Source: Mycobacteriales bacterium (lineage in GTDB: Bacteria > Actinomycetota > Actinomycetes > Mycobacteriales > QHCD01). Taken from it: a stretch of 64,000 nucleotides of DNA. This document shows positions 3,769 through 63,950 of this stretch, piece by piece. Under the pieces are notes generated by a model, which was not told the origin of the DNA, ran no database searches, and saw only the letters and a list, made by a program, of their open reading frames with translations. The stretch lies in assembly GCA_036267955.1 (NCBI GenBank), contig DATAVB010000086.1, positions 817-64,816 on the forward strand. The letters run 5' to 3'. Both the position numbers and the translations under genes were made by a program. Within the stretch, counting starts at the first letter, position 1. Every line of letters starts with the position of its first letter.

Positions 3769-3899
3769 GTTGGCCAACACTACGGCGGTACGGCGGTGCC
3801 GCCCATAGACCAAAGTCGATCCGACCCTCGACGCTCGGCTACCGATCACCGACTCCCGCCCGACGCGCGCACCGGGTCGGCGCCGGCAGAGTGGCCGCC

Positions 3900-4818: not shown

Positions 4819-5598
4819 ATGACCGCAACCACTCTGTCCGCCGTGTCGCCCACCCCGGCGCGGACGAAACGGGCATCGCTGCGCCGGCTGACCCTCATCG
4901 AGCTGCGCAAGATGGCCGACACCCGAGCCGGTATCGCCCTGCTCGCCGTCACCGTGCTGATCGCGGTGGTGATGATGCTGGTCCTCCCGTTCGCGTCGCA
5001 CGACTACGAACAGTCGCTGTCCTACTTCTTCCGCAACACGCTCATGCCGGTGGGGGCCCTGCTGCCGGTGCTGGGAATCCTCGCGGCGACAAGTGAATGG
5101 TCGCAGCGCACCGCGTTGAGCACGTTCACCCTCGTGCCGCATCGGGAACGGATCGCCGCGGCGAAGGTGTTCGCGGTCGTCCTGCTCGCGGTGCTCGCCA
5201 CCGCGCTCTGCCTGGTCACGGCGGCCCTCGCCAACCTGATCGGCCACGCGCAGGGCGCCAACGGTGGTTGGGAGTTGTCGGGCACGATCCTCGGCAACGG
5301 ATTGCTCAGCCAGCTTTTCGGAATGCTGATCGGCTTCTCCTTCGGGCTGCTGCTGATGAGCTCGCCGTTCGCTATCGTGGCTTACTTCCTCGTGCCGACC
5401 GTCATCCAGTTGCTCGGCGGCCTGGTGAACCAGCTGACCAAGCCGTTGCACTGGTTCGACCAGAGCGCGCTGACCAAGCTCTCCGACGAGCACGTCAGTG
5501 GAAAGTCGTGGGCGCAGATCGCCACGACGCTGGCGTTGTGGTTGCTTGTCCCGCTCGCGCTCGGTCTGATCAGACTCAACCGGCACGAGGTCAAGTAG
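4819..5598 (+). CDS. ABC-2 family transporter permease
   Basis: The ATG lies 1 nt after the ATPase stop. The product is a multi-TM hydrophobic protein (LIELRKMADTRAGIALLAVTVLIAVVMM...). Confidence 0.8.
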   Translation: MTATTLSAVSPTPARTKRASLRRLTLIELRKMADTRAGIALLAVTVLIAVVMMLVLPFASHDYEQSLSYFFRNTLMPVGALLPVLGILAATSEWSQRTALSTFTLVPHRERIAAAKVFAVVLLAVLATALCLVTAALANLIGHAQGANGGWELSGTILGNGLLSQLFGMLIGFSFGLLLMSSPFAIVAYFLVPTVIQLLGGLVNQLTKPLHWFDQSALTKLSDEHVSGKSWAQIATTLALWLLVPLALGLIRLNRHEVK

Positions 5599-5620
5599 CG
5601 GTACCGAGATCGACGTCAGG

Positions 5621-5658
5621 CGACCGGCGGTCCACCCATCCGGGTGGGCCGCCGGTCG
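5621..5658 (+). terminator. Intrinsic-terminator-like hairpin after the ABC-2 operon
   Basis: A 17-bp GC-rich stem (cgaccggcggtccaccc / gggtgggccgccggtcg) with a 4-nt loop is followed by gccgtttcc. Confidence 0.5.
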
Positions 5659-5706
5659 GCCGTTTCCGGACACGCAAGGCGCGTCTCCGGTGATGACAAC
5701 GATTTC

Positions 5707-11409: not shown

Positions 11410-12537
11410 GTGATCAGGGTGGTTTCAGCACGATCATGGCGATGGGCAGCTCCCGTTGTGGTGGCCGTCGGTATCGGCTCGGGCATCGGCATCAACGGCG
11501 CCATGTCGGCTGACGCGTCGCCGACGTTGCCGGCGAAGACGCCGACCGCGCTGCTCAGTGAGGTACAGGGCGCCCACATTGACGGCTTCTCCGGCACGGT
11601 CGTCCAGCACGCCGATCTCGGCCTGCCGGACATCTCGACGCTCGGCGGGGGCCGCGGCAGCTCGGACCTGTCCTCGTTGATCACCGGCTCGCACACGATG
11701 CGGGTCTGGTACGACGGTCCGCAGAAGGTACGGCTGGCGCTGCTGGGCACGCTCGGTGAATCCGACCTGATCCGCAACGGCAGCAACCTGTGGAACTGGT
11801 CGAGCAAGAACAACTCGGTGACCCACTACGCGCTGCCGGCCGACGCCGGCAAGCAGGCCGAGAAGGCTCCGGCCGGCACCCCGCTGACCCCGCAGCAGGC
11901 CGCTGAGAAGGCACTGGCGGCGGTCAATCCGACGACCAGGGTGACCGTGTCGGGCACCGTCTCGGTGGCCGGACGTTCGGCGTACGAGCTGGTGATCGCG
12001 CCCCGCGACACGACGTCGCTGGTCGGCTCGGTGAAGATCGCCGTCGACTCCGCGACCCACGAACCGCTGCGCGTCCAGATCTTCGCCAAGGGTCACAGCA
12101 AGGCGGCCCTGGAGGTCGGATTCACCCAGATCAGCTTCACCAAGCCCGGTGCGGCCCAGTTCCAGTTCACGGCGCCGAAGGGCGCCACGGTGAAGCAGGG
12201 CAACCTCGGCGGTCTGGCCGGCGGGCACGGGTCGAAGCAGCACCCCGCGTCGCCGCCGAAGGCTAAGCACGCCGTGCCGAGCAAGGCCGGCGAGCCGGCC
12301 GTGGTCGGCACGGGCTGGTCGCAGGTGCTGGTGGTCAAGGACTTCACAATGCCGTCCGGAAAGTCCGCCGGCCAGTTCGGCAGTCTGCTGCACAACCTCC
12401 CGCAGGTCAGCGGCAGCTGGGGTAGCGGCCGGCTGTTCACCTCCTCGCTGATCAACGCGCTGATCACCGACGACGGCCGACTGGTCGTCGGCGCGGTCCC
12501 AGCCAACCAGCTGTACGCCGCCGCAGCGCACCGATGA
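11410..12537 (+). CDS. Secreted LolA-like / RseB-like fold protein (uncharacterised actinobacterial family)
   Basis: A Sec-type signal sequence (AAPVVVAVGIGSGIGINGAMSADA) is present. The N-terminal region resembles LolA-like proteins usually found next to ABC-2 exporters. The stop overlaps the next ATG (ATGA). Confidence 0.55.
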   Translation: MIRVVSARSWRWAAPVVVAVGIGSGIGINGAMSADASPTLPAKTPTALLSEVQGAHIDGFSGTVVQHADLGLPDISTLGGGRGSSDLSSLITGSHTMRVWYDGPQKVRLALLGTLGESDLIRNGSNLWNWSSKNNSVTHYALPADAGKQAEKAPAGTPLTPQQAAEKALAAVNPTTRVTVSGTVSVAGRSAYELVIAPRDTTSLVGSVKIAVDSATHEPLRVQIFAKGHSKAALEVGFTQISFTKPGAAQFQFTAPKGATVKQGNLGGLAGGHGSKQHPASPPKAKHAVPSKAGEPAVVGTGWSQVLVVKDFTMPSGKSAGQFGSLLHNLPQVSGSWGSGRLFTSSLINALITDDGRLVVGAVPANQLYAAAAHR

Positions 12538-13532
12538 CCACGGAAGTCGTGTCCTCGCAAGGCAGTACGGCGGGCAGCCGGGACCGGAGCACGGTCCAGG
12601 CTGCCCCGGCCGTGGCCACGACAGGGCTGACCAAGCGGTTCCGGGGCGGGCAGGTCGCGGTCAACGCCATCGACCTGGTGGTGCCCTCGCGCAGTGTGTA
12701 CGGCTTTCTGGGGCCCAACGGCTCGGGCAAGACGACCACGATCCGCATGCTGCTCGGGCTCATCTCGCCGACCGCGGGCACGCACGAGCTGTTCGGTCAG
12801 CCGATGCCCGGCCAGGCCGCACAGGTGCTGCCCCGGGTCGGAGCGCTGGTCGAGGGACCGGCGTTCCACCTGCACCTGAGCGGGCGGGCCAACCTGGCCC
12901 GAGTCGACGCGGCCGACCGGACGGCCGATCCGCGCACCGCCTCGGCCCGGATCGCCGAGGCGTTGGACCGGGTCGGGCTCTCGATCGCGGCGGGCAAGAA
13001 GGTCCGCAATTACTCCCTCGGCATGAAGCAGCGGCTCGGCATCGCCGCGGCGCTGCTGCAGCCGCGAGAGCTGCTGGTGCTCGACGAGCCGACCAACGGC
13101 CTGGATCCGCAGGGCACCCGCGAGGTGCGGTCGCTGATCAGCTCGCTGGCCGATGAGGGCACGACCGTGCTGATCTCCTCGCACCTGCTCTCCGAGGTCG
13201 AGCAGATCTGTACGCACGTCGGCGTCATGCACGCCGGCCGCCTCATCCGGCAGGGGCCGCTGGATGCCCTGCGGGAAGGGCAGACCGCCCAGGTGCAGGT
13301 GCACACGGCACAGCCGGCCGAGGCGGTCGCGGTGCTGGACCGGCTCGGTCTGGCGCACGTGACGCGGCAGGGCAGCGATGTCACCGCCGAGCTCGACGGC
13401 CGACCGCCGGAAGATATCTGTGCCGAGTTGGTCCGGGCCGGAGTCGGGATCCGCGGCTTCGTTGTCGACGCCCCCACCCTGGAGGACGTTTTCGTGTCAC
13501 TGACCGGGGAGGGTTTCGATGTCAGCGGTTGA
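12534..13532 (+). CDS. ABC transporter ATP-binding protein
   Basis: Walker A GPNGSGKTT, signature YSLGMKQRL and Walker B LLVLDEPTNGLD are present. Confidence 0.9.
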   Translation: MTTEVVSSQGSTAGSRDRSTVQAAPAVATTGLTKRFRGGQVAVNAIDLVVPSRSVYGFLGPNGSGKTTTIRMLLGLISPTAGTHELFGQPMPGQAAQVLPRVGALVEGPAFHLHLSGRANLARVDAADRTADPRTASARIAEALDRVGLSIAAGKKVRNYSLGMKQRLGIAAALLQPRELLVLDEPTNGLDPQGTREVRSLISSLADEGTTVLISSHLLSEVEQICTHVGVMHAGRLIRQGPLDALREGQTAQVQVHTAQPAEAVAVLDRLGLAHVTRQGSDVTAELDGRPPEDICAELVRAGVGIRGFVVDAPTLEDVFVSLTGEGFDVSG

Positions 13533-14391
13533 CGCGACAACCGCCGCACCGGCCGCCTCCGCGCGGCCGCTGCGGTCGGTGAGCAGCAGATTCTTCCGCT
13601 CGGAATTGGGAATGGTTTTCGGCCGGCGCCGCAACCAGGTCGCGTTGCTGGTGCTCGGCTGCGTGCCGATTCTGATCGCCATCGCGGTGAAGCTCTCCAC
13701 ACCGAAGCCGGGTGACGGCGGCCCGCAGTTCATCGCACAGATCACCCAGAACGGCGTCTTCGTGGCGTTCAGCACGCTGACCGTGGTGATTCCGATCTTC
13801 CTGCCGCTGGCGGTGGCCGTCGTCTCCGGTGACGCGGTCGCCGGGGAGGCCGGATCCGGGACGCTGCGCTACCTGCTGGTCGTTCCCGTGAGCCGGGCCC
13901 GGCTGTTGCTGGTGAAGTACGCCAGTACGTTGGTTTTCGCGCTCGCCGCGACCCTGCTCGTGTCGGGGGTGGGCGTGCTGATCGGATTGATTCTGTTCCC
14001 GCGCGGCTCCGCGACGCTGTTGTCCGGCTCCACCGTCGGAATGGGTGAGGTGCTCTGGCGCCTGCTCCTGTGCAGTCTGTACGTCGCGGCCGGAATGGCT
14101 GCCCTGGCGGCGATCGGGCTCTTCATCTCCACCCTGGTCGAGGCTTCTGTCGCCGCGATGGCAACCACGGCAGGGATAGCGATCGTGCTGCAGGTGCTCG
14201 ATTCGGTGCCCCAGCTGCACGCGATTCAGCCGTATCTGGTGAATCACTGGTGGCTGAGCTTCGGGGATCTGCTCCGATCTCCCATGGTGACAGGCGATGT
14301 GGTGCACGGGCTGCTCGTCTCGCTGGCCTATGTAGGGATATTCGGCTCCTTGAGTTGGGCCCGTTTCGGCGGCAAGGACGTGTCCAGCTGA
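13519..14391 (+). CDS. ABC-2 family transporter permease
   Basis: The product is a multi-TM hydrophobic protein. The gene overlaps the ATPase gene by 14 nt. Confidence 0.8.
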   Translation: MSAVDATTAAPAASARPLRSVSSRFFRSELGMVFGRRRNQVALLVLGCVPILIAIAVKLSTPKPGDGGPQFIAQITQNGVFVAFSTLTVVIPIFLPLAVAVVSGDAVAGEAGSGTLRYLLVVPVSRARLLLVKYASTLVFALAATLLVSGVGVLIGLILFPRGSATLLSGSTVGMGEVLWRLLLCSLYVAAGMAALAAIGLFISTLVEASVAAMATTAGIAIVLQVLDSVPQLHAIQPYLVNHWWLSFGDLLRSPMVTGDVVHGLLVSLAYVGIFGSLSWARFGGKDVSS

Positions 14392-14460: not shown

Positions 14461-15474
14461 TCAGTTGTTGTTCGAAACCCATTCGCCGGTCTGCGGGTCG
14501 ACCGCGTAATTGTTGGGAATGTCGTTCTCATCCGGAGTGGTGCCCGGGTCGGGGGTGAATTGGCCGCTGTCGGAAACCGAGTAGCCGCCCTTCCACTGCC
14601 CGTCCTGGCCCACCTCGACGTGGTCGGCGTGGCCGTCGCCGTCGAAGTCGGTCAGCAGGTAGGTCTTGCCGTCGGCCTCGACCACGGCGCTGTCGGCGTG
14701 GCCGTCCTGGTTGACGTCGATGGTCTCGGCGCCCTCGAAGTGCTGGCCGCCGGCGTCGATGCTGATCGTCCCCGCGGCGGTGCTCGCGGGCGGAACGCCG
14801 TCCGACCCGTCGCTGCCGTCGGCCGGGCCGGTGGTGGAGGAGGAATCACCGTCGCTGGACGTGTCGCTGGGGTAGCTGTCGCTGGAGGAGGAATCGCTGG
14901 AGGAGGTGTCGCTCGGGTAGCTGTCGCTGGACGACGAGTCGCCGGTCGTGCTGGTGGAATCGCCGGCCGGGTTGGAGTCGCTGCTGTCGCTGCCGGGCAC
15001 GCCGTCGTCGATCCACTCGCCGGTGGACTTGTCCTCGTGCTGGACGTCGATCACCTTGCCGTCGGAGCCGATGATCGCGGCGCCGTCGGCCTGACCGTCG
15101 TGGTCGGTGTCAACCGCCATGACCGTGTCGCCGTCGGGCAGCGAGATGCGGGCGACGGCGTCGCCGTCACTGTCGGTGGTGGCGGCCTCGGTGTAGGTGT
15201 GTCCGTCGACCGCGATAGAGACGGTCGAACTTCCGGTGGCCGACGATTCGCCACTCGACCCGCCGGCCGCGGACGAGCTGTCGTCGCTGGACGAGCTGTC
15301 TCCGTAGGAGTTGTCGCCGTAGTCGGAGTGATCCGACCCGCTGTCGTCATTGGCGACCATGCTGTAGTGGTCGTCCCCGGCGGTGTCGCCGAGGCCGCCG
15401 TCGTGATCGGCACCGAAGTTGTCCACGCTGGTGTCCGTACCGGCGTCAAAGGTGGTGTCGTGGTCGAATTCCAT
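14461..15474 (-). CDS. Hyper-acidic Asp/Ser/Gly/Thr-rich protein with DxDxDGxxD calcium-binding-type loops (paralog A, module order X-Y)
   Basis: The start is trimmed to MEFDHDTTF, with RBS GGGAGAT. The loops DTDHDGQAD, DVNQDGHAD and DFDGDGHAD are present. I found no hydrophobic segment and no signal peptide. The protein is paralogous to 15740-16597. Confidence 0.7.
   Translation of the reverse strand: MEFDHDTTFDAGTDTSVDNFGADHDGGLGDTAGDDHYSMVANDDSGSDHSDYGDNSYGDSSSSDDSSSAAGGSSGESSATGSSTVSIAVDGHTYTEAATTDSDGDAVARISLPDGDTVMAVDTDHDGQADGAAIIGSDGKVIDVQHEDKSTGEWIDDGVPGSDSSDSNPAGDSTSTTGDSSSSDSYPSDTSSSDSSSSDSYPSDTSSDGDSSSTTGPADGSDGSDGVPPASTAAGTISIDAGGQHFEGAETIDVNQDGHADSAVVEADGKTYLLTDFDGDGHADHVEVGQDGQWKGGYSVSDSGQFTPDPGTTPDENDIPNNYAVDPQTGEWVSNNN
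14861..14940. repeat. In-frame 45-nt tandem duplication inside paralog A (encodes SSSDSYPSDTSS x2)
   Basis: gtgtcgctggggtagctgtcgctgga... recurs at 14861 and 14906 with few substitutions. Confidence 0.7.
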
Positions 15475-15672
15475 GGTCGTTATCTCCCAGCAGTCAGCGT
15501 CGAGGTTCAGCAATCTGCGGCATACGCTAGGTCGTACGCCGGACCGGAAGCTTCCCGGATTCGTGCCATCGAATGCCTGTCCGTTCTGTGCACTGTAGTC
15601 GCTTCTGCGTCCGTGTCACGGGTTGTGTCACGGACGCTGTCGACGACGGTCCGGTAGTGCCGCAATGGAAGC

Positions 15673-15739: not shown

Positions 15740-16597
15740 TCAGCTGCCGGACTGGGGCGGGCCGGCGTCGACCCACTCGCCGGTGCTCGGGTCGACGTAC
15801 TGCACATCGACGACCTGCCCGGTGGAGTCCTCGATCTCCGCCACGTCGGCCTGGCCGTCATGATTGGTGTCGCCCGCCAGCACGGTGTCGCCGTCAGAAA
15901 GATGCACCTGTGCAACGGCATTGCCGCTGCTGTCGTACTGCGCGGCCTCGGTGTACTCCTGACCGTCGACCTGGATCGAGACCGTCGGACCGTTCGTGCC
16001 GTCGGTGCCCGCTGCCGTGGTGCCCGCTGCCGTGGTGCCCGCTGCCGTGGTGGTCGTGTCGGTGGTCGTGTCGGTGGTCGTATCGGTGCCACCGGTCGCC
16101 TCGCGGTCCACCTCCCAATGGCCGTCGCCGTCGGATTCCGACACCGCGATGGGCTGGCCGCTGGCGTCGTATTCGATTGCGATATCGGCCTTTCCGTCAC
16201 CGTCGGAGTCGCCCACGAGGATCATTCCGTTTCCTTCATGGATCACGGCAGCGTCGAGGTGGCCGTCATGGTCGACGTCGATGGTGGCGGGCAGTTCGTA
16301 CTCCTGGCCGTTCACGTCAAGTTGGATTTCGCTTCCGGACGACGTCGTCGAGGTACCGGAGTCGCCGTTTGAGTCGCCACTGGAGTCGCCACTGGAGTCG
16401 CCACTGGAGTCATAGCCGGTGGTGCCCGCAGTGGCCGGGTCGTCCGATCCGGCGCCGGTTCCGGAGTCGTCGTTGGCGACCATCCCGTAGTGGCTGTCGT
16501 CGCCCGCGCTGAAGCCAGTCGAGTCGTCGGTCGCATCCAGCGGACCTTCGGCAGCTGGCTCGTCGACGGTGTCGAAGCTGCCGTCGTGTCCGTCCAT
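15740..16597 (-). CDS. Hyper-acidic DxDxDGxxD-loop protein (paralog B, module order Y-X)
   Basis: The start is trimmed to MDGHDGSFDTV, with RBS GGGAG. The loops DVDHDGHLD, DSDGDGKAD and DTNHDGQAD are present. It shares the N-terminal motif DDSHYGMVANDDSG and the C-terminal TGEWVD with paralog A. Confidence 0.7.
   Translation of the reverse strand: MDGHDGSFDTVDEPAAEGPLDATDDSTGFSAGDDSHYGMVANDDSGTGAGSDDPATAGTTGYDSSGDSSGDSSGDSNGDSGTSTTSSGSEIQLDVNGQEYELPATIDVDHDGHLDAAVIHEGNGMILVGDSDGDGKADIAIEYDASGQPIAVSESDGDGHWEVDREATGGTDTTTDTTTDTTTTAAGTTAAGTTAAGTDGTNGPTVSIQVDGQEYTEAAQYDSSGNAVAQVHLSDGDTVLAGDTNHDGQADVAEIEDSTGQVVDVQYVDPSTGEWVDAGPPQSGS
16004..16084. repeat. In-frame micro-tandem repeats in paralog B (15 nt x3 then 12 nt x3; encode TTDTTTDTTTDTTTTAAGTTAAGTTAAGT on the minus strand)
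   Basis: ggtgcccgctgccgt occurs three times (16004-16048), followed by ggtggtcgtgtc three times (16049-16084). Confidence 0.85.
16359..16406. repeat. 12-nt in-frame tandem repeat in paralog B (encodes SGDS repeats)
   Basis: gagtcgccactg occurs three times (16371-16406), preceded by a degenerate copy. Confidence 0.8.
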
Positions 16598-16785
16598 GGT
16601 GAACTCCCTAGTTGCGGTGACGTAAGGTTGCGGCCACGCTAAGCGGCTCACCCGCCGCGTTGTATCGCGGAATCGTGCCACCAGCAACGGATGAACAAGA
16701 CACCGGTGTCGTTAACCCGACACCGCACGCATCAGGGGATATCCGACCATAGTTCGTCGCGGTAGACCCCAGCTCTCGCGTTACT

Positions 16786-16811
16786 GCTTTGTCCGCTCTG
16801 CCGGACAAAGC
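16786..16811. promoter_or_regulatory. 10-bp inverted repeat in the divergent intergenic region upstream of the repeat-peptide ORF
   Basis: The arms are gctttgtccg and cggacaaagc with a 6-nt spacer, about 100 nt upstream of the ATG at 16911. Confidence 0.3.
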
Positions 16812-16910
16812 ACAGCTATTTCGGTCACTATTTCCTGGATGTGTGCCGAATCTCGGCTACTGCGGCATTATTTCCCTTGGCCGTTTTCTCTTTAGTGCAA
16901 GGAGCCCCCC

Positions 16911-17078
16911 ATGACCACCAACACCACCCCTGCCACCCAGTTCGTCTCAGCCGCAGACGGCAGCAGCTGGTATTCAGTTGCTGGCACTGACGGCTCGAGC
17001 TGGTATTCAGTTGCTGGCAGTGACGGTTCAAGCTGGTACTCGGTTGCTGGCAGTGACGGTTCGAGCTGGTACGTCTAA
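16911..17078 (+). CDS. Unannotated 55-aa ORF: leader-like N-terminus plus four tandem DGSSWYSVAG(T/S) repeats
   Basis: My translation is MTTNTTPATQFVSAADGSSWYSVAGTDGSSWYSVAGSDGSSWYSVAGSDGSSWYV*. An AAGGAG RBS lies 7 nt upstream. Seven of 8 codon differences between repeat units are synonymous, including AGC/TCG/TCA Ser switches. The ORF is below the 60-aa cut-off of the supplied track. Confidence 0.6.
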   Translation: MTTNTTPATQFVSAADGSSWYSVAGTDGSSWYSVAGSDGSSWYSVAGSDGSSWYV

Positions 17079-17202
17079 CTGCCAGTCGACGTTCGCAGTC
17101 GCGCACGCTGTCGCTGAACCTGGTCGATTGTCGGCGTGAGGTAGCCTTCATTCGGCGCATGGACGATGATGTCTGTCGTCTCGGTCAGCCGATGGAGGGC
17201 GT

Positions 17203-19776
17203 GTGCGTTCGCGACTGAGCCTTCGGCGATTGTGGACCCGGCACGCCGGGCGTGCTCGGTGGTGCCTGTACGGTGCGCCGGCGGTGGCTGCCGCGGCAAT
17301 CTGGTGGCTGTTCGCGTTCGACGGTCCGGTCGGCAATTGGACCGCGATCATTCTGGTCACGGCCGGATCTGTTGTCGCCGAGCGCACACAACTGTTCATC
17401 GTTGTGCGCAAACAAACTGTTGCGCTCTCGGTAAACGATATTCCGCTGACCGTGGGGCTGCTGGCCCTGTCGCCGCTTTCGCTGCTGATATCCCGGGTGG
17501 TGGCGAAATGCGTGATCCTCGTGCTGCGCCGACCCGGCACCGGAAAGTCCGTCTTCAACCTGGGCGTCGAGGCGCTCGAGGTCGCGGTCGCGGCAACCGT
17601 CGCGCACTCCCTGTCGACCCTGCATTCAGTGCAGGAGCCGGCGACCTGGGGTGCGATCTTCGTTGGCGTCGCCGCCGCGGATGTCACGAGCGCGGCGCTC
17701 GTCGCATTGGCGATCAGGGTGACAGAAGTGCACCTGGACCGCCGGCAGGTCGCATCGCTCTTCGTGCCGGCCTTTGTCGTCGGCCTCATCGACACGACGC
17801 TCGGCCTGGTGGGCGTGCTGGTCATGTCGGTCAATCGGTGGGCGGGCAGCCTGCTGGTCCTCGTAATCGTGGTGTTCTATTTCGCTCACCGCGCATACGG
17901 CAGGTTCCTGGCGCAGCACGAACGACTCGAACAGGTCTATGCATTCAGCCGTCGGGTCGAAGCCTCCCGGCCCGAGCCTGAGGCCATTGGCCCATTGCTC
18001 GAATTCATTCGCGAGACCCTCAATGCGCGCGAAGTCACACTGATTCTGGCGCTCGGCGATCCTGACGAAGGCGATCCAACCGAGGAGACGCCCCTCAGAA
18101 TTGTCACCGTGGGTACAGATGGCAAACCGGAATGGACGCAGACGGTAGTGGCCGGCGAACCGCTGCGCCAGGTGGTATTCGCCGACGGGCGGAGCCGGCT
18201 GGTGTCCACCCGGAGTGGCCACATCGACCAACTGTGGGCCGATGCGATGGTCGCGCGGAATGCCACCGAGGTGATTCTCGCGCCATTGCGTACCCACGAC
18301 CGGGTCTGGGGAGTGGTCGAGGCGACCGATCGGCAGGTGAAATTCGCCGCCTTCACCCCTGAGGAGGTTCGGCTGCTCGACAACCTGGCGCGCCACCTCG
18401 CGGCCGCCGTGGAGAACCAGGGCTTGGTGGAACGGCTGCGCCTGCAGGCCTTTACCGATCCGCTCACCGGAATGCCGAACCGGGTGCGGTTCGAGGCCGA
18501 TGTCACCGAGGCGCTCGAGGCCGCCGAGCCGGAGGATCTCCTGGGAATCGCGGTGTTCGGCGTGGACGCGGTCAAGTCGGTCAACGACACTCTCGGGCAC
18601 GAAGCCGGTGACCAGCTGGTGACAGCTGTCGCGACCCGGCTGACGTCACTGGCTGGTGAGACGGTCCGGGTCGCCCGGATCGGTGGCAACGCGTTCGCTC
18701 TCCTGCTGCACGACTCAGATCTCGCCGCGCTGCAGGAGCAACTGCGACTGTGGCACGAGCGGCTGCATCCGCCCTGCCCGGCCGGCGACGTGACGATCGA
18801 GCTCGCACTTTCCGGTGGTCTCGCGGTCGCGCCGATTCACGGCTCCAATGCCGCGGAGTTGTTGCAGCGGGCCACGGTGGCGCTGGAGTCGGCCCGCAAC
18901 ACCGGCCAGCCGGTGGTCAGCTACGTCGCCGCCATGGAGCACGGCAGCCTGCGCCGCCTGCAGTTGGCCACCGACCTGCGTGCCGCGCTGTCGGACAATC
19001 AGCTGCGGCTGCACTATCAGCCCAAGGTGGCCCTGGACGGCAATGCGGTCGTCGGGGTCGAGGCGCTGTTGCGCTGGGAGCATCCCGAATACGGCAATGT
19101 CCCGCCGGACGAGTTCATCCCGCTGGCCGAGCGCACCGGACTGATCGGGCCGCTGACCACCTTTGTTCTCGGTACGGCGCTGCGCCAGTGCCGCAGCTGG
19201 CTGGAGCGCGACCTGCGGATCGGGGTGGCGGTCAACCTCTCGGTCCGCAGCCTGCTCGATCCTGAGCTGGTCCCGCGCATCTCGACCTTGCTGGCCGAGA
19301 TCGACGTGCCGTCGGAACTGTTGACGTTGGAGATCACCGAGGGAACGGTGATGGCCGACCCGGACCGGGCGCTGCCCGTGCTGCACCGGCTGCGTGGGCT
19401 CGGGATACAGCTGGCCGTCGACGACTTCGGCACCGGGTATTCCTCACTGGCGTACCTGCGGCACCTGCCCGTCGACGACGTGAAGATCGACAAGGCCTTC
19501 GTACTCGGAATGGGCACCGGCGAGGAAGATCTGGCAATCGTGCGGGCGATCGTCGAGCTGTGCCACAGCCTCCGGTTCACCGTGGTCGCGGAGGGGGTCG
19601 AGGACGAGCTGACCCGCGATCTGCTGCGGGGCATGGGATGCGACGCCGTACAGGGTTATCTGGTCAGTCGACCGCTGCCGACGGACCGGTTCGACGCCTG
19701 GCACGACACCTGGTTGGCGGCGCACGAGGAGCGGCCGGAGACGGTGCGCCGGTTGCACGTCTCGGGCGGCTCCTGA
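17203..19776 (+). CDS. Membrane-anchored GAF-GGDEF(degenerate)-EAL protein, probable c-di-GMP phosphodiesterase
   Basis: A GTG start follows a GGAGGG RBS. The N-terminal 220 aa are multi-TM, followed by a GAF-like region. The GGDEF site reads RIGGNAF. The EAL motifs EALLRWEHP, NLS, EITE, DDFGTGYSS, KIDKAFV, EGVE and QGY are intact. Confidence 0.9.
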   Translation: MRSRLSLRRLWTRHAGRARWCLYGAPAVAAAAIWWLFAFDGPVGNWTAIILVTAGSVVAERTQLFIVVRKQTVALSVNDIPLTVGLLALSPLSLLISRVVAKCVILVLRRPGTGKSVFNLGVEALEVAVAATVAHSLSTLHSVQEPATWGAIFVGVAAADVTSAALVALAIRVTEVHLDRRQVASLFVPAFVVGLIDTTLGLVGVLVMSVNRWAGSLLVLVIVVFYFAHRAYGRFLAQHERLEQVYAFSRRVEASRPEPEAIGPLLEFIRETLNAREVTLILALGDPDEGDPTEETPLRIVTVGTDGKPEWTQTVVAGEPLRQVVFADGRSRLVSTRSGHIDQLWADAMVARNATEVILAPLRTHDRVWGVVEATDRQVKFAAFTPEEVRLLDNLARHLAAAVENQGLVERLRLQAFTDPLTGMPNRVRFEADVTEALEAAEPEDLLGIAVFGVDAVKSVNDTLGHEAGDQLVTAVATRLTSLAGETVRVARIGGNAFALLLHDSDLAALQEQLRLWHERLHPPCPAGDVTIELALSGGLAVAPIHGSNAAELLQRATVALESARNTGQPVVSYVAAMEHGSLRRLQLATDLRAALSDNQLRLHYQPKVALDGNAVVGVEALLRWEHPEYGNVPPDEFIPLAERTGLIGPLTTFVLGTALRQCRSWLERDLRIGVAVNLSVRSLLDPELVPRISTLLAEIDVPSELLTLEITEGTVMADPDRALPVLHRLRGLGIQLAVDDFGTGYSSLAYLRHLPVDDVKIDKAFVLGMGTGEEDLAIVRAIVELCHSLRFTVVAEGVEDELTRDLLRGMGCDAVQGYLVSRPLPTDRFDAWHDTWLAAHEERPETVRRLHVSGGS

Positions 19777-19845: not shown

Positions 19846-19918
19846 GCCCTCTTAGCTCAGTCGGCAGAGCGTCTCCATGGTAAGGAGAAGGTCTAGGGTT
19901 CGATTCCCTAAGAGGGCT
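19846..19918 (+). tRNA. tRNA-Thr (anticodon GGT)
   Basis: It folds by hand as a cloverleaf with acceptor GCCCTCT/AGAGGGC, anticodon stem TCTCC/GGAGA, loop ATGGTAA and T-arm TAGGG-TTCGATT-CCCTA. Confidence 0.9.
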
Positions 19919-19948
19919 CGACGGCGCCAGGACCCGGGTGCCGCCCGA

Positions 19949-20025
19949 GGCGGAGTAGCTCAGTCTGGCAGAGCAAGCGGCTCATAATCGCTGTGTCGCC
20001 GGTTCAAGTCCGGCCTCCGCTACCA
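19949..20025 (+). tRNA. tRNA-Met (anticodon CAT, elongator type; an Ile-lysidine identity is not excluded)
   Basis: The cloverleaf has anticodon loop CTCATAA, T-loop TTCAAGT and an encoded 3' CCA. Confidence 0.85.
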
Positions 20026-21650: not shown

Positions 21651-21723
<73 letters not shown>

Positions 21724-21775
21724 CAATTCAGCTTCACCGAACAGCACCAGATCAGCACCGACGAGAGAGGACGCC

Positions 21776-25364: not shown

Positions 25365-28300
25365 TCAGGTGCGGGGCGGGAACGGGATGCCGGCCCGGGA
25401 GGCCCGGGTGGCGACGTCCGGGCGGAGCGGTTGGTGGACCTTCAACTGCTCGGTTGCAGCCTCGATCGCCTTCTCCAGCTGAGGATCCGCGCCGGCCGCC
25501 GACTCCTGCGGGCTGACGTCGACCTCGATGTCGGGCTCGGTGCCGCGGTTCTCCAGCCCCCAGCCGACGTCGGCGAACCAGAAGGCGTACTCCGGCTGGG
25601 TCGTCATGGTGCCGTCGGCGAGCCGGACGTCGGGGCTGATGCCGATGACGCCGCCCCAGGTGCGCATGCCCACCACCGGACCGAGCTCCAGCATCGAGAA
25701 CGCGTGCGTGAAGATGTCGCCGTCCGAGCCGGCGTGCTCATTGGTGAGGCACACCATCGGGCCGGCCGGCGAGGTGTCCGGGTACGGCTCCGGCGGCCGC
25801 CACCGGCTGACCGTGGCGCCGATCCGCTTGCGGGTCAGTTTGTCCAGCAGCAGCCCGGAGACCGCGCCACCGCCGTTGAAGCGGACGTCGACGACCAGAG
25901 CGTCCCGGTCGTGTTCGGTCAGGAACGCGCGGTGGAATTCCGCGTACCCGTCCACCCACATGTCCGGCACGTGCAGATATCCGATCCGGCCCGCGCTGGC
26001 CTCGTGCACCAGCTTCCGGTTGCGCTCCACCCATTCCCGGTACCGCGCCCTGCGCTCGCCGTCCAGCGTCTTGACGGTGACCCGCCGCGGATACGCGCCG
26101 TCCGGGCCGGCGACGGTGAGCTCCACCGCCTGATCGGCCTGATGCACCAGCAGCGGGCCCGGGCCGGTCAGCGGGTCGACCGGCTGCCCGCCGACCGCCA
26201 GCAGCGTGTCGCCTTCCCGTACGCCGACACCCGGCCCGGCCAGCGGCGAGGTCGCCTCGGGATCCCAGCTGTCACCGACCACGATGTGACCCACGTGCCA
26301 CCGTCCGGTGGCGTCGTCACGCCGCAGGTCGGCGCCGAGCTGCCCGATGGCCCAGTGTTCGGTCGGCCGGTAGTCACCACCCATCTCGTACGCGTGCGAG
26401 GTGCCGAGCTCGCCCTGCAACTCCCACAGCAGGTCGGAGAATTCGGCCCGGGTGGCGACCCGGTGCGCCAGCGGTTCGTACCGGCGCAGGATCGCCGGCC
26501 AGTCGATCCCCGCCATGTCGGGGATCCAGTAGCGGTCCCGCTGCAATCGCCACGCCTCGGCCAGCATCTGCGGCCACTCGGCGCTCGGGTCAACCGGGAT
26601 CCGGATCCGGTCGATGTCGACCCAACCGGACTCCCGGCCGGCCTCGTCGCCGGCATCCTTGGCCGGCTCCACTCCCGCCTTCACGATGCGCACCCGGCCG
26701 CTCGCTCGGTACAGCATCGTGCTGTGGTCGGCCGACACGACCACGTCGCCGGCGTCGTCGGAGAGCTCCTTGTATTCCTGCGTGCTGAGGTCGTAGCAGC
26801 CCAGCACGCCGCTGGTGACCTTGTCGGACATCGGGTTGTTGCCCCGTTCGCCGGTGACCGGCTCCGAGCAGATCAGCACTTTCTCGCCGATCCCGATCAC
26901 CTGGGTATAGCGCTCCTCCGGCAGCGGGAACGCCACCACCCGGTCGGCAATGCCGTCGAAATCAATGACCGTCGGCTGCGGTTTGTCGGCATTCTTCTCG
27001 GCGTCGACATCGCCGCTCCTGCCGCTGTCGGCCGGGTCGTCCTTCTTCTCCAACGGCCGCCGTACCGGGATGAACGGCGAGACGAGGTCGGGTCGGAGCG
27101 TCACGAGATAGGGCTTTCCGGCCTTGGGAAAGCCGGCCGAGAACTGCACATCGTCCATTACCGGGTTGAAGGTTCGCCGGGACAGAAAGTAGAGATACCG
27201 GCCCTGCGGATCGAAATTCGGATCTTCGTTGCGGAAGTCCGGCCGGACCACCTCGTGCACCTCGCCGGACTCGACCGCGACCACACGGATCGCCGACGCG
27301 TACGCCGACACCGGGTAGCTGTAGGCCAGCCAGGCGGAGTCCGGCGACCAGGTGAGCCCGGAGATCCGGGCGCCGGGCGCCTCGTCGGCTACCCGCAGCA
27401 GGCCGTCGGCAGTCGTCACGATCAATAGTTGACGGCGCCGGTTGCAGACGGCGACGGCGCTGCCGTCCGGTGCCGGGGCGATCTCCCGGATGCCGCCGAG
27501 ATCGGCGTCGGTCAGCCTGCGGCCGCGGCCTTCCTGGCCGGCCGTCAATTCGACGAGCTCCAGGCCGTCCTCGCCGGCGGCGTCGCTGACCGCGACGATC
27601 CGCTCGCCGTCGAGGTACTCGGCGAGGCGGTAGCGCACCCCCTGGGCAGTGCCGTGCTGGCTGGCCGCCTCCTCCCAGGCCGGCATGGTGACCAGCTTGC
27701 CGCGGACGGCGGTCAGCAGCGTGTGGCCGTCCGGGTGCAGTGTCGGGTCGGACAGATGCCGGGACGCGTCGACGAAACGCCGGTTGCGTTGGGTGCGTGG
27801 CCCGGCCAGCCGGATCGGGATCTGCCGAGCCGTGTTGTCGGTCGGGTCGAGCAGCCAGAGCGATCCGGCGTGTTGATAGACGATCCGGTGTCCGTCCGTG
27901 CTGGCGTTCCGCGCATAGTAGGTGTCGTGGTCGGTGTGCCGGCGCAATCCACCCCCATCCGGCGTGCACGAATAGATGTTTCCGACGCCCTCATGATCAG
28001 AAATGAAATAGACCCGGTCACCTATCCATAGTGGACAGGCGAAGTTGGTGTCGAGCTCGGCCAGCAGCCGGTGGAAGGTGCCGCTGCCGTCCGGGTCGAT
28101 CCACAACCGGCCGGCCGTGCCGCCGCGGTATCGCTTCCAGGTGGCCGGATCCTCGGTATTACGGCCCAACACCACGGCGCCGGACGGGCCGAATCCGACC
28201 GATCCCACTGTCCCGTACGGCAGCTGACGGACCGGTCCGCCCTCGAGCCCTACGGCGTACGCCGGTGTGATCCGGCCGAATGGCTGGCCGGCCGAGCTGA

Positions 28301-28622
28301 CGAACAGCACCTCGCCGTCCGGGGTGAATCCGCGTACCGCCGTCTTGTGGTCACCCAGCCAGGTCAGCCGGCGGGCCGGCCCGCCCACCGCCGGCATGCT
28401 GTACACCTCCGGCGGACCTTCGGCCTCCGAGATGAACGCGACATGTGCCCCGTCCGCGGAGATCGCGGGCTGGCCGATGTCCGCGAGGTCAGCGGTGAGC
28501 CGGCGTCCCACCCCGCCCTCGATCGGAGCGCTCCACAGGTCGTCCTCGCACACGAACAGCACCGTGCCGCCACCGATGGCCGGATAGCGCAGATAACTGT
28601 CGGGTGATGCCAACTCAGTCAC
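25365..28622 (-). CDS. Tricorn-type protease homolog (beta-propeller + PDZ + S41 peptidase)
   Basis: The start is trimmed to the GTG of VTELASPDSYLRYPAIGGGTVLFVCEDDLWS, with RBS AAGGGGGA. PD40/WD40-like propeller repeats are present. The C-terminal S41 region reads VVDVRFNGGG ... NEHAGSDGDIF. Confidence 0.85.
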   Translation of the reverse strand: MTELASPDSYLRYPAIGGGTVLFVCEDDLWSAPIEGGVGRRLTADLADIGQPAISADGAHVAFISEAEGPPEVYSMPAVGGPARRLTWLGDHKTAVRGFTPDGEVLFVSSAGQPFGRITPAYAVGLEGGPVRQLPYGTVGSVGFGPSGAVVLGRNTEDPATWKRYRGGTAGRLWIDPDGSGTFHRLLAELDTNFACPLWIGDRVYFISDHEGVGNIYSCTPDGGGLRRHTDHDTYYARNASTDGHRIVYQHAGSLWLLDPTDNTARQIPIRLAGPRTQRNRRFVDASRHLSDPTLHPDGHTLLTAVRGKLVTMPAWEEAASQHGTAQGVRYRLAEYLDGERIVAVSDAAGEDGLELVELTAGQEGRGRRLTDADLGGIREIAPAPDGSAVAVCNRRRQLLIVTTADGLLRVADEAPGARISGLTWSPDSAWLAYSYPVSAYASAIRVVAVESGEVHEVVRPDFRNEDPNFDPQGRYLYFLSRRTFNPVMDDVQFSAGFPKAGKPYLVTLRPDLVSPFIPVRRPLEKKDDPADSGRSGDVDAEKNADKPQPTVIDFDGIADRVVAFPLPEERYTQVIGIGEKVLICSEPVTGERGNNPMSDKVTSGVLGCYDLSTQEYKELSDDAGDVVVSADHSTMLYRASGRVRIVKAGVEPAKDAGDEAGRESGWVDIDRIRIPVDPSAEWPQMLAEAWRLQRDRYWIPDMAGIDWPAILRRYEPLAHRVATRAEFSDLLWELQGELGTSHAYEMGGDYRPTEHWAIGQLGADLRRDDATGRWHVGHIVVGDSWDPEATSPLAGPGVGVREGDTLLAVGGQPVDPLTGPGPLLVHQADQAVELTVAGPDGAYPRRVTVKTLDGERRARYREWVERNRKLVHEASAGRIGYLHVPDMWVDGYAEFHRAFLTEHDRDALVVDVRFNGGGAVSGLLLDKLTRKRIGATVSRWRPPEPYPDTSPAGPMVCLTNEHAGSDGDIFTHAFSMLELGPVVGMRTWGGVIGISPDVRLADGTMTTQPEYAFWFADVGWGLENRGTEPDIEVDVSPQESAAGADPQLEKAIEAATEQLKVHQPLRPDVATRASRAGIPFPPRT

Positions 28623-28965
28623 GTCTGGTCCCCCTTGATACGGATGTGCTGACGATGCCACCACAACCGCGCGACCGGGAGAAGAAGCGCGGCCGATCTG
28701 CCCGATCGGGCAGCCGCGGGGGGCCGGTTTGGAGTACGGGACAGTGACGACGTACTCTCGTAACCGAATCCAACCCGAAGACCGCTGGTTGTCGAGTCGT
28801 GTCCGCAAGCCGGGCGTGAATCGACCGAAGGCCCCCAGGGCAGCCCGCGCAGGATGGACGGAGCGTCAGGCGCGCGAGCGCCATCCCGCCCCGTGCGCCC
28901 AGCGCCGGGGCGTCTGTCATGTCTGGGCCCGAGGCAAGACCGGCCGCAGGCATGAGAGGAGGACC

Positions 28966-32022: not shown

Positions 32023-32026
32023 GGCC

Positions 32027-32836: not shown

Positions 32837-32843
32837 GCGGCCG

Positions 32844-44943: not shown

Positions 44944-45000
44944 GAAAGCGATCGTACCGGCAGGTTATGGTCGGCGGACCGGACGGCGAGAGGGAGCGGC

Positions 45001-63935: not shown

Positions 63936-63950
63936 CGCCGACCGATCGCC

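What the first reader, a model, noticed from the sequence alone, without database searches (positions are those of the whole stretch)
16911..17078. Unannotated 55-aa ORF built from four DGSSWYSVAG(T/S) repeats under peptide-level selection
The + strand reads AAGGAG-N7-ATG and encodes MTTNTTPATQFVSAA followed by DGSSWYSVAGT, DGSSWYSVAGS, DGSSWYSVAGS and DGSSWYV, then a stop. The ORF is below the 60-aa threshold, so it is absent from the ORF track. Seven of the eight codon differences among the 33-nt units are synonymous (GGC/GGT, TAT/TAC, TCA/TCG). One Ser position is encoded as AGC, TCG, TCA and TCG in successive units, a switch that cannot happen by a single silent step. That argues for purifying selection on the amino-acid sequence rather than a DNA- or RNA-level repeat. 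Codon choice (TAT, TCA, GTT, GCT, ACT, AGT) is atypically AT-ending for this genome. A short leader followed by iterated Trp-Tyr-containing cores is the layout of multi-core RiPP precursors. Examples are aromatic cross-linked peptides made by P450 or radical-SAM enzymes, and it is also the layout of repeat signalling peptides. No tailoring enzyme is adjacent. The nearest neighbours are the acidic DxDxDG proteins (divergent) and the GAF-GGDEF-EAL membrane protein 125 nt downstream, with no terminator in between.
Basis: partly seen in the sequence, partly recalled or inferred. Interest (0 to 1): 0.7.

Follow-up and report, generated by a model that had tools for sequence, protein, structure and literature searches.

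The report
Trp-repeat small protein beside c-di-GMP sensor
A real but unnamed 55-residue gene made of tryptophan-containing repeats sits directly in front of a membrane c-di-GMP signalling enzyme in this genome and in ten related actinobacterial loci, which points to a peptide-and-sensor pair that has not been described before.

Summary
Window 16911-17078 (+) encodes MTTNTTPATQFVSAA-(DGSSWYSVAG[T/S])x3-DGSSWYV behind an AAGGAG Shine-Dalgarno site. It is a real gene. In all 11 orthologous loci recovered (sensor identity 98% to 41%, including cultured Geodermatophilus), a small same-strand ORF lies 63-299 nt upstream of the orthologous multi-TM GAF-GGDEF-EAL gene. Each ORF has its own Trp repeat (DSTNWY, DNATWL, SSSWG, SVKWY, DGAKWN, GARWGR, GASWQ), in 1 to about 30 copies. 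All periods are multiples of 3, and the last Trp is always 1-2 residues from the C-terminus. Core codons differ by 29 synonymous versus 7 non-synonymous changes (P about 1e-15). Six lineages carry a cleavable Sec signal; the window's clade does not. In three more distant loci the same kind of Trp repeat ends a secreted S8 subtilase placed directly before a TM-GGDEF-EAL gene. No tailoring enzyme is linked, no RNA structure or Rfam family fits, and no Pfam or NCBIfam family matches. The sensor's membrane domain models confidently and weakly resembles ligand-binding ECF S-components. Most likely this is an exported Trp-motif peptide or mini-protein that is the cognate partner of the adjacent c-di-GMP enzyme. 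The RiPP reading is unsupported.

The parts
16775..16898 (+). Conserved upstream region of the small gene, probably promoter/operator plus short 5' UTR. It includes a candidate -35 TGCCGA (16844-16849) and -10 CATTAT (16866-16871) with a 16-nt spacer, and the box GCGGCAT(T/C)ATTTCC..TTGG.
   Evidence: This region is much better conserved than the ORF or the downstream spacer in window/L002/L091/L003. The GGCATCATT(T/C)C..TGG box also occurs about 45 nt before the ATG in L004/L092/L093 and partly in L096. There is no consensus RNA fold and no Rfam match. The promoter assignment is my inference; the consensus promoter scan did not call it.
16899..16904 (+). Shine-Dalgarno AAGGAG, 6 nt before the ATG.
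   Evidence: Read directly from the sequence. AAGGAG is conserved in 7 related loci; L095 has TAAGGAG before its second Met and L099 has GAGGAGG.
16911..17078 (+). Small gene, 55 aa: MTTNTTPATQFVSAA + 3 x DGSSWYSVAG(T/S) + DGSSWYV + stop.
   Evidence: Positional orthologues exist in 10 other loci. It was not found among called proteins in the 5.8-billion protein collection.
16956..17075 (+). Four in-frame repeat units (16956-16988, 16989-17021, 17022-17054, 17055-17075). The core hexapeptide is DGSSWY and the spacer is SVAG(T/S).
   Evidence: TRF. The core shows 6 synonymous and 0 non-synonymous differences in this gene. Single-sequence AF2 places each SWYSVA on a beta-strand and each G(S/T)DGS in a turn (pLDDT 74.6; weak evidence).
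17079..17202 (+). 124-nt spacer between the small gene and the sensor gene. Its sequence is not conserved and it has no terminator-like site.
   Evidence: z = -1.8; no consensus structure.
17203..19776 (+). Partner gene, 857 aa. It has a polytopic membrane domain (about aa 1-255, 17203-17967), then GAF (aa 264-405), GGDEF (416-569) and EAL (591-824).
   Evidence: Pfam. Orthologues. AF2 model of aa 1-261 has pLDDT 92.3 and pTM 0.84. The best PDB fold matches are ECF-transporter S components.

Best explanation
The ORF is a genuine, separately promoted small gene. Its product, a Trp-motif repeat peptide or mini-protein, acts in trans as the cognate partner (ligand or co-sensor) of the adjacent polytopic GAF-GGDEF-EAL enzyme. 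The functional element is a short module, small/polar-x-x-W-(Y/L/G/N/Q), in many lineages D-x-x-x-W-x. It always ends the protein 1-2 residues after the last Trp and is present in 1 to about 30 copies. The product is exported. Export is by Sec in the lineages that keep a cleavable signal peptide, and by an unknown route in the window's clade; the ABC-2 exporter at 12534-14391 is only a guess. Outside the cell, the Trp module is either released by proteolysis as several identical short peptides per precursor or acts as a multivalent beta-hairpin array. It is then recognised by the sensor's membrane-embedded input domain, whose fold resembles small-ligand-binding ECF S components. That recognition shifts the balance of c-di-GMP synthesis and hydrolysis. 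What is shown: the coding status, the purifying selection, the conserved linkage, the C-terminal Trp rule, the signal peptides and the sensor architecture. What is inferred: export in the window's clade, processing, binding to the sensor, and any effect on c-di-GMP.
For: (1) All 11 orthologous loci with upstream sequence carry a same-strand small ORF 63-299 nt before the sensor gene, across 98% to 41% sensor identity. The other flanking genes differ: DUF6802/ABC-2 in the window's clade, YajQ in most of the deeper loci, and an HTH/NB-ARC regulator gene in L095. (2) Trp-repeat ORFs occur upstream in 10 of 15 loci whose sensor has the homologous TM domain, against 1 of 81 control GGDEF-EAL loci (Fisher P = 2.8e-9). 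(3) Core codons show 29 synonymous versus 7 non-synonymous differences where 18.5% synonymous is expected (P = 1.2e-15). In L091 the core DNATWL has 9 synonymous and 0 non-synonymous differences while its spacers vary in sequence and length. In L096 only the GASWQ frame is conserved. (4) In all 13 family members the last Trp is 1-2 residues from the stop. (5) Six lineages have an N-terminal h-region (KD 2.2-2.7) with AxA-type sites. In L095 the predicted cleavage leaves a mature peptide that starts and ends with the core DGAKWN. (6) In L011, L019 and L014 the same type of repeat, (GASWS)n or (SASWG)n, is the C-terminus of an S8 subtilase; the complete L014 ORF has an N-terminal hydrophobic leader. 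A TM-GGDEF-EAL gene follows directly. L011's TM domain is homologous to the window's (E = 2e-17). (7) The upstream region and SD of the small gene are conserved. (8) The sensor membrane domain models at pLDDT 92 and its top fold hits are all ECF S components (RibU, ThiT, BioY, FolT, CbiM; prob 1.0, TM-score 0.56-0.65 on target length).
Against: The window's own clade (window, L002, L091, L003) and Geodermatophilus lack any signal peptide (KD at most 1.0), so export there is unproven and the product could be cytoplasmic. No expression, processing or binding data exist. The S-component similarity is weak (best E = 4e-3, none at or below 1e-3). Two more distant homologues (L013, L016) show no such ORF. 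The charge of the module flips between lineages (net -5 to +8), which fits a co-evolving pair but equally fits a loosely constrained sequence. Linkage alone does not prove physical interaction.
Confidence: 0.5

Rival explanations
1. An independent secreted or envelope-associated Trp-repeat protein, for example a membrane-interface, cell-wall/glycan-binding or antimicrobial peptide. Its linkage to the sensor gene would be only transcriptional or historical, and it would not bind the sensor.
For: Signal peptides and S8-subtilase fusions show an extracytoplasmic life. Single-sequence AF2 predicts a five-stranded beta-meander with an aromatic ladder. The Geodermatophilus version is an (RW)-rich cationic peptide. 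Strong hairpins follow the small ORF in L092, L095 and L099, compatible with a separate transcript.
Against: Linkage to this particular sensor survives several rearrangements of every other neighbour and recurs with S8-fused repeats. That is hard to explain without a functional tie.
Confidence: 0.18
2. A cis-acting leader peptide (uORF). Ribosomes would pause at Trp codons or at the C-terminal W-x-stop, as with trpL or TnaC, and thereby control transcription or translation of the downstream sensor gene.
For: The ORF lies in the 5' leader of the sensor gene with no terminator in the window. The only strictly invariant residue is Trp, and it is always next to the stop codon. Non-preferred codons give a low GC3. 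In the window a hairpin can sequester the sensor's GGAGG.
Against: There is no conserved terminator/antiterminator or any consensus structure in the spacer, and the spacer sequence is not conserved. Residues other than Trp are under purifying selection. Cleavable Sec signals, a 180-aa 30-repeat version and fusions to a 620-aa protease make no sense for a mere leader. The regulated gene has nothing to do with Trp metabolism.
Confidence: 0.12
3. A multi-core RiPP precursor whose Trp (or Trp-Tyr) is modified by enzymes encoded elsewhere in the genome, for example prenylation as in ComX or aromatic cross-linking. This is the first reader's favoured reading, and it is compatible with a signalling role.
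For: The layout is a short N-terminal segment plus iterated conserved cores with variable spacers, with the last core ending the protein. The Trp is invariant. There is no hit to any ordinary protein family.
Against: No radical-SAM, P450, prenyltransferase, YcaO, lanthipeptide or peptidase gene lies in the scanned parts of the window, and none is co-conserved in any of the related loci. No NCBIfam or Pfam precursor model matches. Sec signal peptides instead of leader peptides in six lineages are atypical for RiPPs, which are usually modified in the cytoplasm.
Confidence: 0.12
4. A non-coding tandem DNA or RNA repeat (iterons, protein-binding sites) that merely happens to be open in one frame.
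For: It is a tandem repeat in an intergenic-looking region next to a conserved upstream block.
Against: Relatives share no repeat nucleotide sequence beyond TGG, yet each keeps an open frame, an SD, a period divisible by 3 and a synonymous-only divergence pattern. No Rfam or structural signal was found.
Confidence: 0.02

Closest known systems
ComX pheromone / ComP receptor of the Bacillus ComQXPA system
   Same: Both have a small, highly polymorphic peptide gene next to the gene of a polytopic membrane receptor. The one invariant residue is a Trp a few residues from the C-terminus (the Trp detail is my own knowledge). ComX as a signalling peptide acting on ComP and modified by ComQ is described in PMC5799266.
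   Different: There is no ComQ-like isoprenyl transferase nearby and no sequence match to any known family. The receptor output is GAF-GGDEF-EAL, not a histidine kinase. The module is repeated 1-30 times, and several lineages use a Sec signal.
Sec-exported pro-peptides with a C-terminal active peptide (Phr, PapR, NprX, SHP/XIP type signals of Firmicutes)
   Same: In six lineages the layout is a cleavable signal peptide, an S/T/A/P-rich pro-region, and the conserved element at the extreme C-terminus. The link to subtilisin-type proteases recalls Phr processing by subtilisins (my own knowledge).
   Different: The partner is a membrane enzyme, not a cytoplasmic RRNPP receptor. No oligopeptide permease link was seen. 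The window's clade has no signal peptide. The phylum is Actinomycetota.
Multi-copy (multi-core) peptide precursors: yeast alpha-factor, cyanobactins, triceptides/3-residue cyclophane RiPPs
   Same: Both show iterated identical cores separated by variable spacers, with the last core ending the precursor and copy number varying between lineages.
   Different: No maturation or tailoring enzyme is linked. Processing is not demonstrated. Some family members have a single core.
Trp-dependent leader peptides (trpL, TnaC)
   Same: Both are a short ORF in the leader of a downstream gene with Trp codons as the conserved feature.
   Different: There is no conserved attenuator structure and the downstream gene is unrelated to Trp metabolism. 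The whole core is under purifying selection, and signal peptides are present.
ECF-transporter S components (RibU, ThiT, BioY, FolT, CbiM), compared with the sensor's membrane domain only
   Same: They are the best and only coherent fold matches to the confident AF2 model. They are compact helical membrane proteins that bind small, mostly aromatic ligands from outside.
   Different: Similarity is weak (E at least 4e-3, about 10-15% identity). The domain has an extra beta-hairpin and helix, is fused to GAF-GGDEF-EAL, and no EcfT/EcfA genes are linked. No Pfam family matches.
BNR/Asp-box (S-x-D-x-G-x-T-W) hairpins and designed tryptophan-zipper hairpins
   Same: The unit (S/T)DG-x-SW-x-x-V resembles an Asp-box. 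A phmmer search of 1.84 billion proteins pulled out BNR propeller proteins among its 27 hits. AF2 predicts D-G turns and Trp-bearing strands.
   Different: The Pfam BNR model does not match the small proteins. The units are 5-11 aa, not about 40-aa blades, and many family members lack the D-G.

Membership tests
RiPP precursor (multi-core; P450, radical-SAM or prenyl-modified) | Tailoring-enzyme gene adjacent to, or co-conserved with, the precursor gene | tested here: not met
   Pfam scans of window genes from 165 to 45597 show ABC transporters, two-component systems, DUF6802 proteins, ribosomal/Had genes, an mce operon and a tricorn protease, but no rSAM, P450, prenyltransferase or YcaO. Neighbours in related loci vary and include none.
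RiPP precursor (multi-core; P450, radical-SAM or prenyl-modified) | Match to a curated precursor family model | tested here: not met
   NCBIfam and Pfam at E up to 10 gave nothing relevant.
RiPP precursor (multi-core; P450, radical-SAM or prenyl-modified) | Post-translational modification of the core | not testable with these tools
   Needs mass spectrometry.
ComX/ComQXPA-type pheromone | ComQ isoprenyl transferase gene next to the peptide gene | tested here: not met
   and the neighbour tables.
ComX/ComQXPA-type pheromone | Conserved Trp close to the C-terminus of a polymorphic peptide, with an adjacent polytopic receptor gene | tested here: met
   The last Trp is 1-2 residues from the stop in 13 of 13 members. 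The adjacent gene has about 6-8 membrane helices. However, the receptor is a GGDEF-EAL enzyme, not a histidine kinase.
Sec-exported C-terminally active pro-peptide signals (Phr/PapR type) | Cleavable N-terminal Sec signal peptide | tested here: inconclusive
   Present in the L004, L092, L093/94, L095, L096 and L097 lineages and in P0122 and P0124. Absent in the window, L002, L091, L003 and L099. This rests on hydropathy and AxA inspection only.
Sec-exported C-terminally active pro-peptide signals (Phr/PapR type) | Adjacent cytoplasmic RRNPP-family receptor | tested here: not met
   The conserved neighbour is a membrane GAF-GGDEF-EAL protein.
Trp leader peptide / transcription attenuator | Conserved alternative terminator/antiterminator structure after the ORF | tested here: not met
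   No terminator-like site in the window spacer, z = -1.8, and no consensus pairs in 4 relatives.
Trp leader peptide / transcription attenuator | Regulated operon belongs to Trp metabolism or transport | tested here: not met
   The downstream gene is GAF-GGDEF-EAL, followed by tRNAs and rpmG-hadAB.
BNR/Asp-box repeat proteins | Match to Pfam PF02012 (BNR) or an Asp-box in about 40-aa propeller blades | tested here: not met
   BNR hits P0131 and P0133 but none of the small proteins.
Pentapeptide repeat proteins | Match to PF00805 / PF13599 | tested here: not met
   The window peptide has no hit. Only the 5-aa-period relatives L096 and L011 give weak hits.
ECF S component (sensor membrane domain) | S-component fold | tested here: inconclusive
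   Foldseek top hits are all S components, but E is 4e-3 or worse and TM-scores are 0.41-0.50 (query) and 0.56-0.65 (target).
ECF S component (sensor membrane domain) | Association with the EcfT/EcfA energising module | tested here: not met
   No such genes appear in the window or related loci.

The most novel reading that the evidence does not exclude
An actinobacterial peptide-signalling cassette. A ribosomal, probably unmodified, multi-copy Trp peptide with lineage-specific 'pherotype' cores such as DGSSWY, DSTNWY and DNATWL would be exported. It would then be read directly by an S-component-like membrane domain that gates a GAF-GGDEF-EAL enzyme. That would amount to peptide quorum or autocrine sensing wired straight into c-di-GMP turnover.
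Probability: 0.25. Interest if true: 0.85.

Novelty: new variant of a known kind. Interest (0 to 1): 0.7.

Why it matters
Peptide signals are well known in Firmicutes but hardly known in Actinomycetota. Very few membrane-bound c-di-GMP enzymes have an identified input ligand. Here a candidate ligand is genetically encoded beside an orphan sensor domain, with natural allelic series (different cores, copy numbers and charges) that would make specificity directly testable with synthetic peptides. The case also shows a family that gene callers miss, as in the window and Geodermatophilus, or call in the wrong frame, as in L096. Finally, it defines a new membrane input domain for GGDEF-EAL proteins that has no Pfam model.

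Tried and rejected
(1) A direct protein search with the 55-aa peptide in 5.8 billion proteins found nothing at E up to 10. The peptides are too short and too divergent for sequence searching, so synteny was used instead.

(2) The genome-contig scan with the sensor protein found only the contig already in hand. The metagenome scan with the orthologue alignment seeded on generic GGDEF/EAL motifs and returned mostly paralogues. Those loci were reused as a negative control.

(3) phmmer of the peptide against 1.84 billion representatives gave 27 hits. All were unrelated repeat proteins, junk translations or BNR propellers. BNR membership was then tested and rejected.

(4) Rfam searches at gathering and at E up to 10 thresholds found nothing. 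RNA folding of the spacer and of the conserved upstream block gave no conserved structure.

(5) The consensus sigma-70 promoter scan found nothing. The promoter proposed here is therefore inference from conservation.

(6) Foldseek of the single-sequence peptide model gave only generic beta-meander matches.

(7) The last contig look-up, for a Blastococcus orthologue, failed.

(8) Literature searches by topic and by literal repeat strings found no description of this family.

(9) tblastn for YajQ or an S8 protease in the window found none.

Full report
OBSERVATION. Window 16911-17078 (+) is an open frame of 55 codons: MTTNTTPATQFVSAA, then DGSSWYSVAGT, DGSSWYSVAGS, DGSSWYSVAGS, DGSSWYV, then stop. 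Tandem Repeats Finder reports period 33, 3.3 copies and 92% matches. Among the units the codon differences are GGC/GGT, AGC/TCG/TCA, TAT/TAC and TCA/TCG (all silent) and ACT/AGT (Thr/Ser). In the other five frames the same differences change amino acids. GC3 is 0.65 against 0.83 for the next gene and 0.78-0.95 for other genes of the window. The description is therefore accurate.

IT IS A CONSERVED GENE.

- The gene 124 nt downstream (17203-19776) encodes a polytopic membrane domain followed by GAF, GGDEF and EAL domains.
- Its orthologues were fetched with their flanks.
- L001, the 98%-identical orthologue, starts inside the sensor gene and so has no upstream sequence.
- In every locus that has upstream sequence, a small ORF lies on the same strand 63-299 nt before the sensor gene. 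There are 11 distinct loci, with sensor identity to the window's protein from 66% down to 41%. They keep the downstream synteny sensor-rpmG-hadA-hadB.

The products are:

- L002: ...(DSTNWY + spacer) x5, ending NWYN.
- L091: MNTNIAAAA(DNATWL + spacer) x5, ending V.
- L003: ...(DGGSSSWGYT) x3, then DGGSSSWG.
- L004: signal peptide + (SVKWY...) x3, ending K.
- L092: signal peptide + ...DTTRWGK.
- L093/94: signal peptide + ...NSHKWY.
- L095: signal peptide + DGAKWN...DGAKWN...DGAKWN.
- L096: signal peptide + about 30 x GASWQ. The public gene call there is in the wrong frame.
- L097/98: signal peptide + ...YGVIWI.
- L099/100 (Geodermatophilus sp., not called as a gene): MNERGARWG(RGARWG) x3, ending R, behind GAGGAGG.

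A profile of the signal-type members found only five clusters in 5.8 billion proteins. The two new ones end in LHWY and HKWY.

In all 13 sequences the last Trp is 1-2 residues from the C-terminus. The other neighbours are not conserved. They are DUF6802 proteins and an ABC-2 exporter in the window's clade, YajQ in most of the deeper loci, and an HTH/NB-ARC regulator gene in L095. Linkage is therefore to the sensor gene alone.

SELECTION. I took the six codons from W-4 to W+1 of every repeat in seven genes. Copies differ by 29 synonymous and 7 non-synonymous nucleotide changes, where random change of these codons would be 18.5% synonymous (binomial P = 1.2e-15).

- L091: 9 synonymous and 0 non-synonymous differences in DNATWL, while its spacers differ in sequence and length (SVI, SVS, NVTAS, NVQA).
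- Geodermatophilus: 8 synonymous and 0 non-synonymous.
- L096: the GASWQ frame shows 6 synonymous and 1 non-synonymous; the other two frames show 1/6 and 0/7.

All repeat periods (15, 18, 27-33 nt) are multiples of three. Relatives share no repeat DNA beyond TGG.

SPECIFICITY OF THE ASSOCIATION. A six-frame scan of all 100 fetched loci looked for at least 3 regularly spaced Trp residues in similar context. It found such repeats upstream of the sensor in 10 of 15 loci whose sensor has the homologous membrane domain. It found them in only 1 of 81 control loci carrying other GGDEF-EAL genes (Fisher P = 2.8e-9).

Three of the positives are of a different form. In L011, L019 and L014 an S8 subtilase ends in (GASWS)n, (GNSWS)n or (SASWG)n and is followed within about 100-170 nt by a TM-GGDEF-EAL gene. 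The complete L014 ORF has an N-terminal hydrophobic leader, which marks it as secreted. L011's membrane domain is homologous to the window's (31% identity over 214 aa, E = 2e-17). L014's is not detectably homologous. Two distant homologues, L013 and L016, show nothing comparable.

EXPRESSION SIGNALS. About 135 nt upstream of the small gene is much better conserved than the ORF or the spacer in the four loci of the window's clade. A box GGCAT(C/T)ATT(T/C)C..TGG about 45 nt before the ATG recurs in the L004/92/93 clade and partly in L096. I read this as a promoter with operator, with -35 TGCCGA at 16844-16849 and -10 CATTAT at 16866-16871. That is inference: the consensus scan did not call it. 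There is no consensus RNA fold. Rfam has no match at gathering or at E up to 10. The spacer to the sensor gene is not conserved, has no terminator-like site, no consensus structure and an unremarkable folding energy. In L092, L095 and L099 strong GC hairpins follow the small ORF. This is compatible with an abundant short transcript plus read-through.

THE PARTNER. The first 261 residues of the sensor, modelled with 44 homologues, give pLDDT 92.3 and pTM 0.84. The model has about seven long helices, one beta-hairpin and very short loops. No Pfam or NCBIfam family covers the domain. The best PDB fold matches are all substrate-binding S components of ECF transporters: RibU, ThiT, BioY, FolT and CbiM/NikM. 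They score probability about 1.0, TM-score 0.56-0.65 on target length, and E = 4e-3 at best. This is a lead, not a proof. It suggests a membrane-embedded pocket for a small, possibly aromatic, ligand.

THE PRODUCT. Six lineages have a typical h-region (Kyte-Doolittle 2.2-2.7) and AxA-type sites (VSA, ANA, ATA, SVA). In L095 the predicted cleavage leaves a peptide that begins and ends with DGAKWN. The window's clade and Geodermatophilus have no hydrophobic N-terminus, so their export route, if any, is unknown. An ABC-2 exporter (12534-14391) lies nearby in that clade, but this is only a coincidence worth testing. Single-sequence AlphaFold2 of the window peptide gives a five-strand beta-meander with SWYSVA strands and G(S/T)DGS turns (pLDDT 74.6, pTM 0.41). 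Its Foldseek matches are generic. The unit faintly resembles an Asp-box, and phmmer pulled out BNR proteins. The BNR model does not match the small proteins.

MECHANISM. The best-supported reading (about 0.5) is that the small gene makes a trans-acting Trp-motif peptide or mini-protein that is the cognate partner of the adjacent c-di-GMP enzyme. The C-terminal polar-x-x-W-x module would be the recognised element. Repeats would give either several peptides per precursor after proteolysis or a multivalent hairpin array. Coding status, selection, linkage, the C-terminal Trp rule, the signal peptides and the sensor architecture are shown. Export in the window's clade, processing, binding and the effect on c-di-GMP are inferred.

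The rivals are:

- An envelope or secreted Trp-repeat protein linked to the sensor only by regulation (0.18).
- A cis-acting Trp leader peptide (0.12). It is weakened by the absence of any conserved attenuator, by selection on non-Trp residues, by the signal peptides and by the protease fusions.
- A RiPP precursor modified by unlinked enzymes (0.12). No tailoring gene was found in the scanned window genes or co-conserved in any related locus.
- A non-coding repeat (0.02).

COMPARISON AND NOVELTY.

- The arrangement works most like ComX-ComP: a polymorphic peptide with an invariant near-C-terminal Trp beside a polytopic receptor (PMC5799266 for the system; the Trp detail is from my own knowledge). 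It also resembles the Sec-exported, C-terminally active pro-peptides of Firmicutes, and it has the multi-copy layout of alpha-factor-type or multi-core precursors.
- It is not a member of any of these families. There is no ComQ, no RRNPP receptor, no tailoring enzyme and no family-model match.
- Literature searches by topic and by the literal repeat strings found no description.
- I rate it a new variant of a known kind (a peptide-receptor cassette). It has a new peptide family, a new membrane input domain and a c-di-GMP output, and it occurs in a phylum where peptide signalling is barely documented.

LIMITS.

- Only 11 syntenic loci plus 3 protease-fused cases were available, mostly from metagenomes of one order.
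- No expression or biochemical data exist.

Noticed in passing
window 16775-16898 (and L002 about 5570-5690, L091 about 1980-2100, L003 about 2135-2255): The block upstream of the small gene is more conserved at the DNA level than either flanking coding region. It contains repeated ATTTC(C/G) elements, a GACAAAG box and a partly conserved inverted repeat CTTTGTCCG...CGGACAAAG (window 16787-16810). It probably holds operator sites for an unknown regulator. It has no consensus RNA structure.
   Followed up: partly
window 14461-15513 (-) and 15740-16687 (-): Two tandem, very acidic DUF6802-like paralogues (weak FG-GAP/DUF6802 hits) carry in-frame low-complexity tandem repeats (TRF 14857-14942, 15997-16088, 16358-16411). 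A homologue sits divergently next to the small gene only in the window's clade (L002, L003, L091).
   Followed up: partly
L004 4559-5050, L092 2544-3035, L093 2541-3032, L096 2108-2599, L097 2113-2604, L099 2185-2676 (all on the minus strand): In most of the deeper loci a YajQ-family gene (PF04461) is the conserved divergent neighbour upstream of the small-ORF/sensor pair. It is absent from L095 and from the 64-kb window (tblastn). A functional tie to c-di-GMP signalling is possible but was not examined.
   Followed up: no
L096 3395-3937 (+): The public gene call (3592-3963, VAGRF repeats) is in the wrong frame. The frame with a signal peptide and about 30 GASWQ repeats is the one under purifying selection (6 synonymous, 1 non-synonymous, against 0-1 synonymous and 6-7 non-synonymous in the other frames).
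   Followed up: yes
L011 198-1247, L019 383-1183, L014 369-2231: S8 subtilases end in long (G-A/N-S-W-S) or (S-A-S-W-G) pentapeptide Trp repeats, and each is directly followed by a TM-GGDEF-EAL gene. This C-terminal repeat module has no dedicated Pfam model; it gives only weak pentapeptide-repeat hits.
   Followed up: partly
L099/L100 3736-3830: Two strong GC-rich hairpins (best -39.5 kcal/mol) lie immediately after the Geodermatophilus small ORF, with no U-tract. They could be a terminator or attenuator, and they are not seen in the window.
   Followed up: no
L095 1-759: A PCMT-like methyltransferase (414 aa, runs over the locus end) is followed by a 50-aa gene. It looks like a separate RiPP-type enzyme/precursor pair a few kb upstream of that locus's small-ORF/sensor pair.
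   Followed up: no
window 16911-17078 and the small ORFs of 8 other loci: GC3 of the small ORF is below that of the adjacent sensor gene in 9 of 11 loci (for example 0.65 vs 0.83, 0.68 vs 0.96). The window copy uses GTT, GCT, TCA, AGT and TAT in a genome with coding GC3 of about 0.8-0.95. The cause is unexplained; translation pacing, avoidance of mRNA structure or recent origin are possibilities.
   Followed up: partly
window 63941-64000: A 16-nt tandem repeat ACCGAACGACAGCTAT (3.8 copies, 95%) runs off the end of the window.
   Followed up: no
window 30245-40212; 44107-45597; 25365-28808 (-): Other content of the window includes an mce-type lipid-transport operon (MlaE x2, Mce/MlaD x5), a 496-aa pentapeptide-repeat protein and a tricorn-like S41 protease. 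tRNA-Thr, tRNA-Met and tRNA-Trp are at 19846-19919, 19949-20025 and 21651-21724.
   Followed up: no
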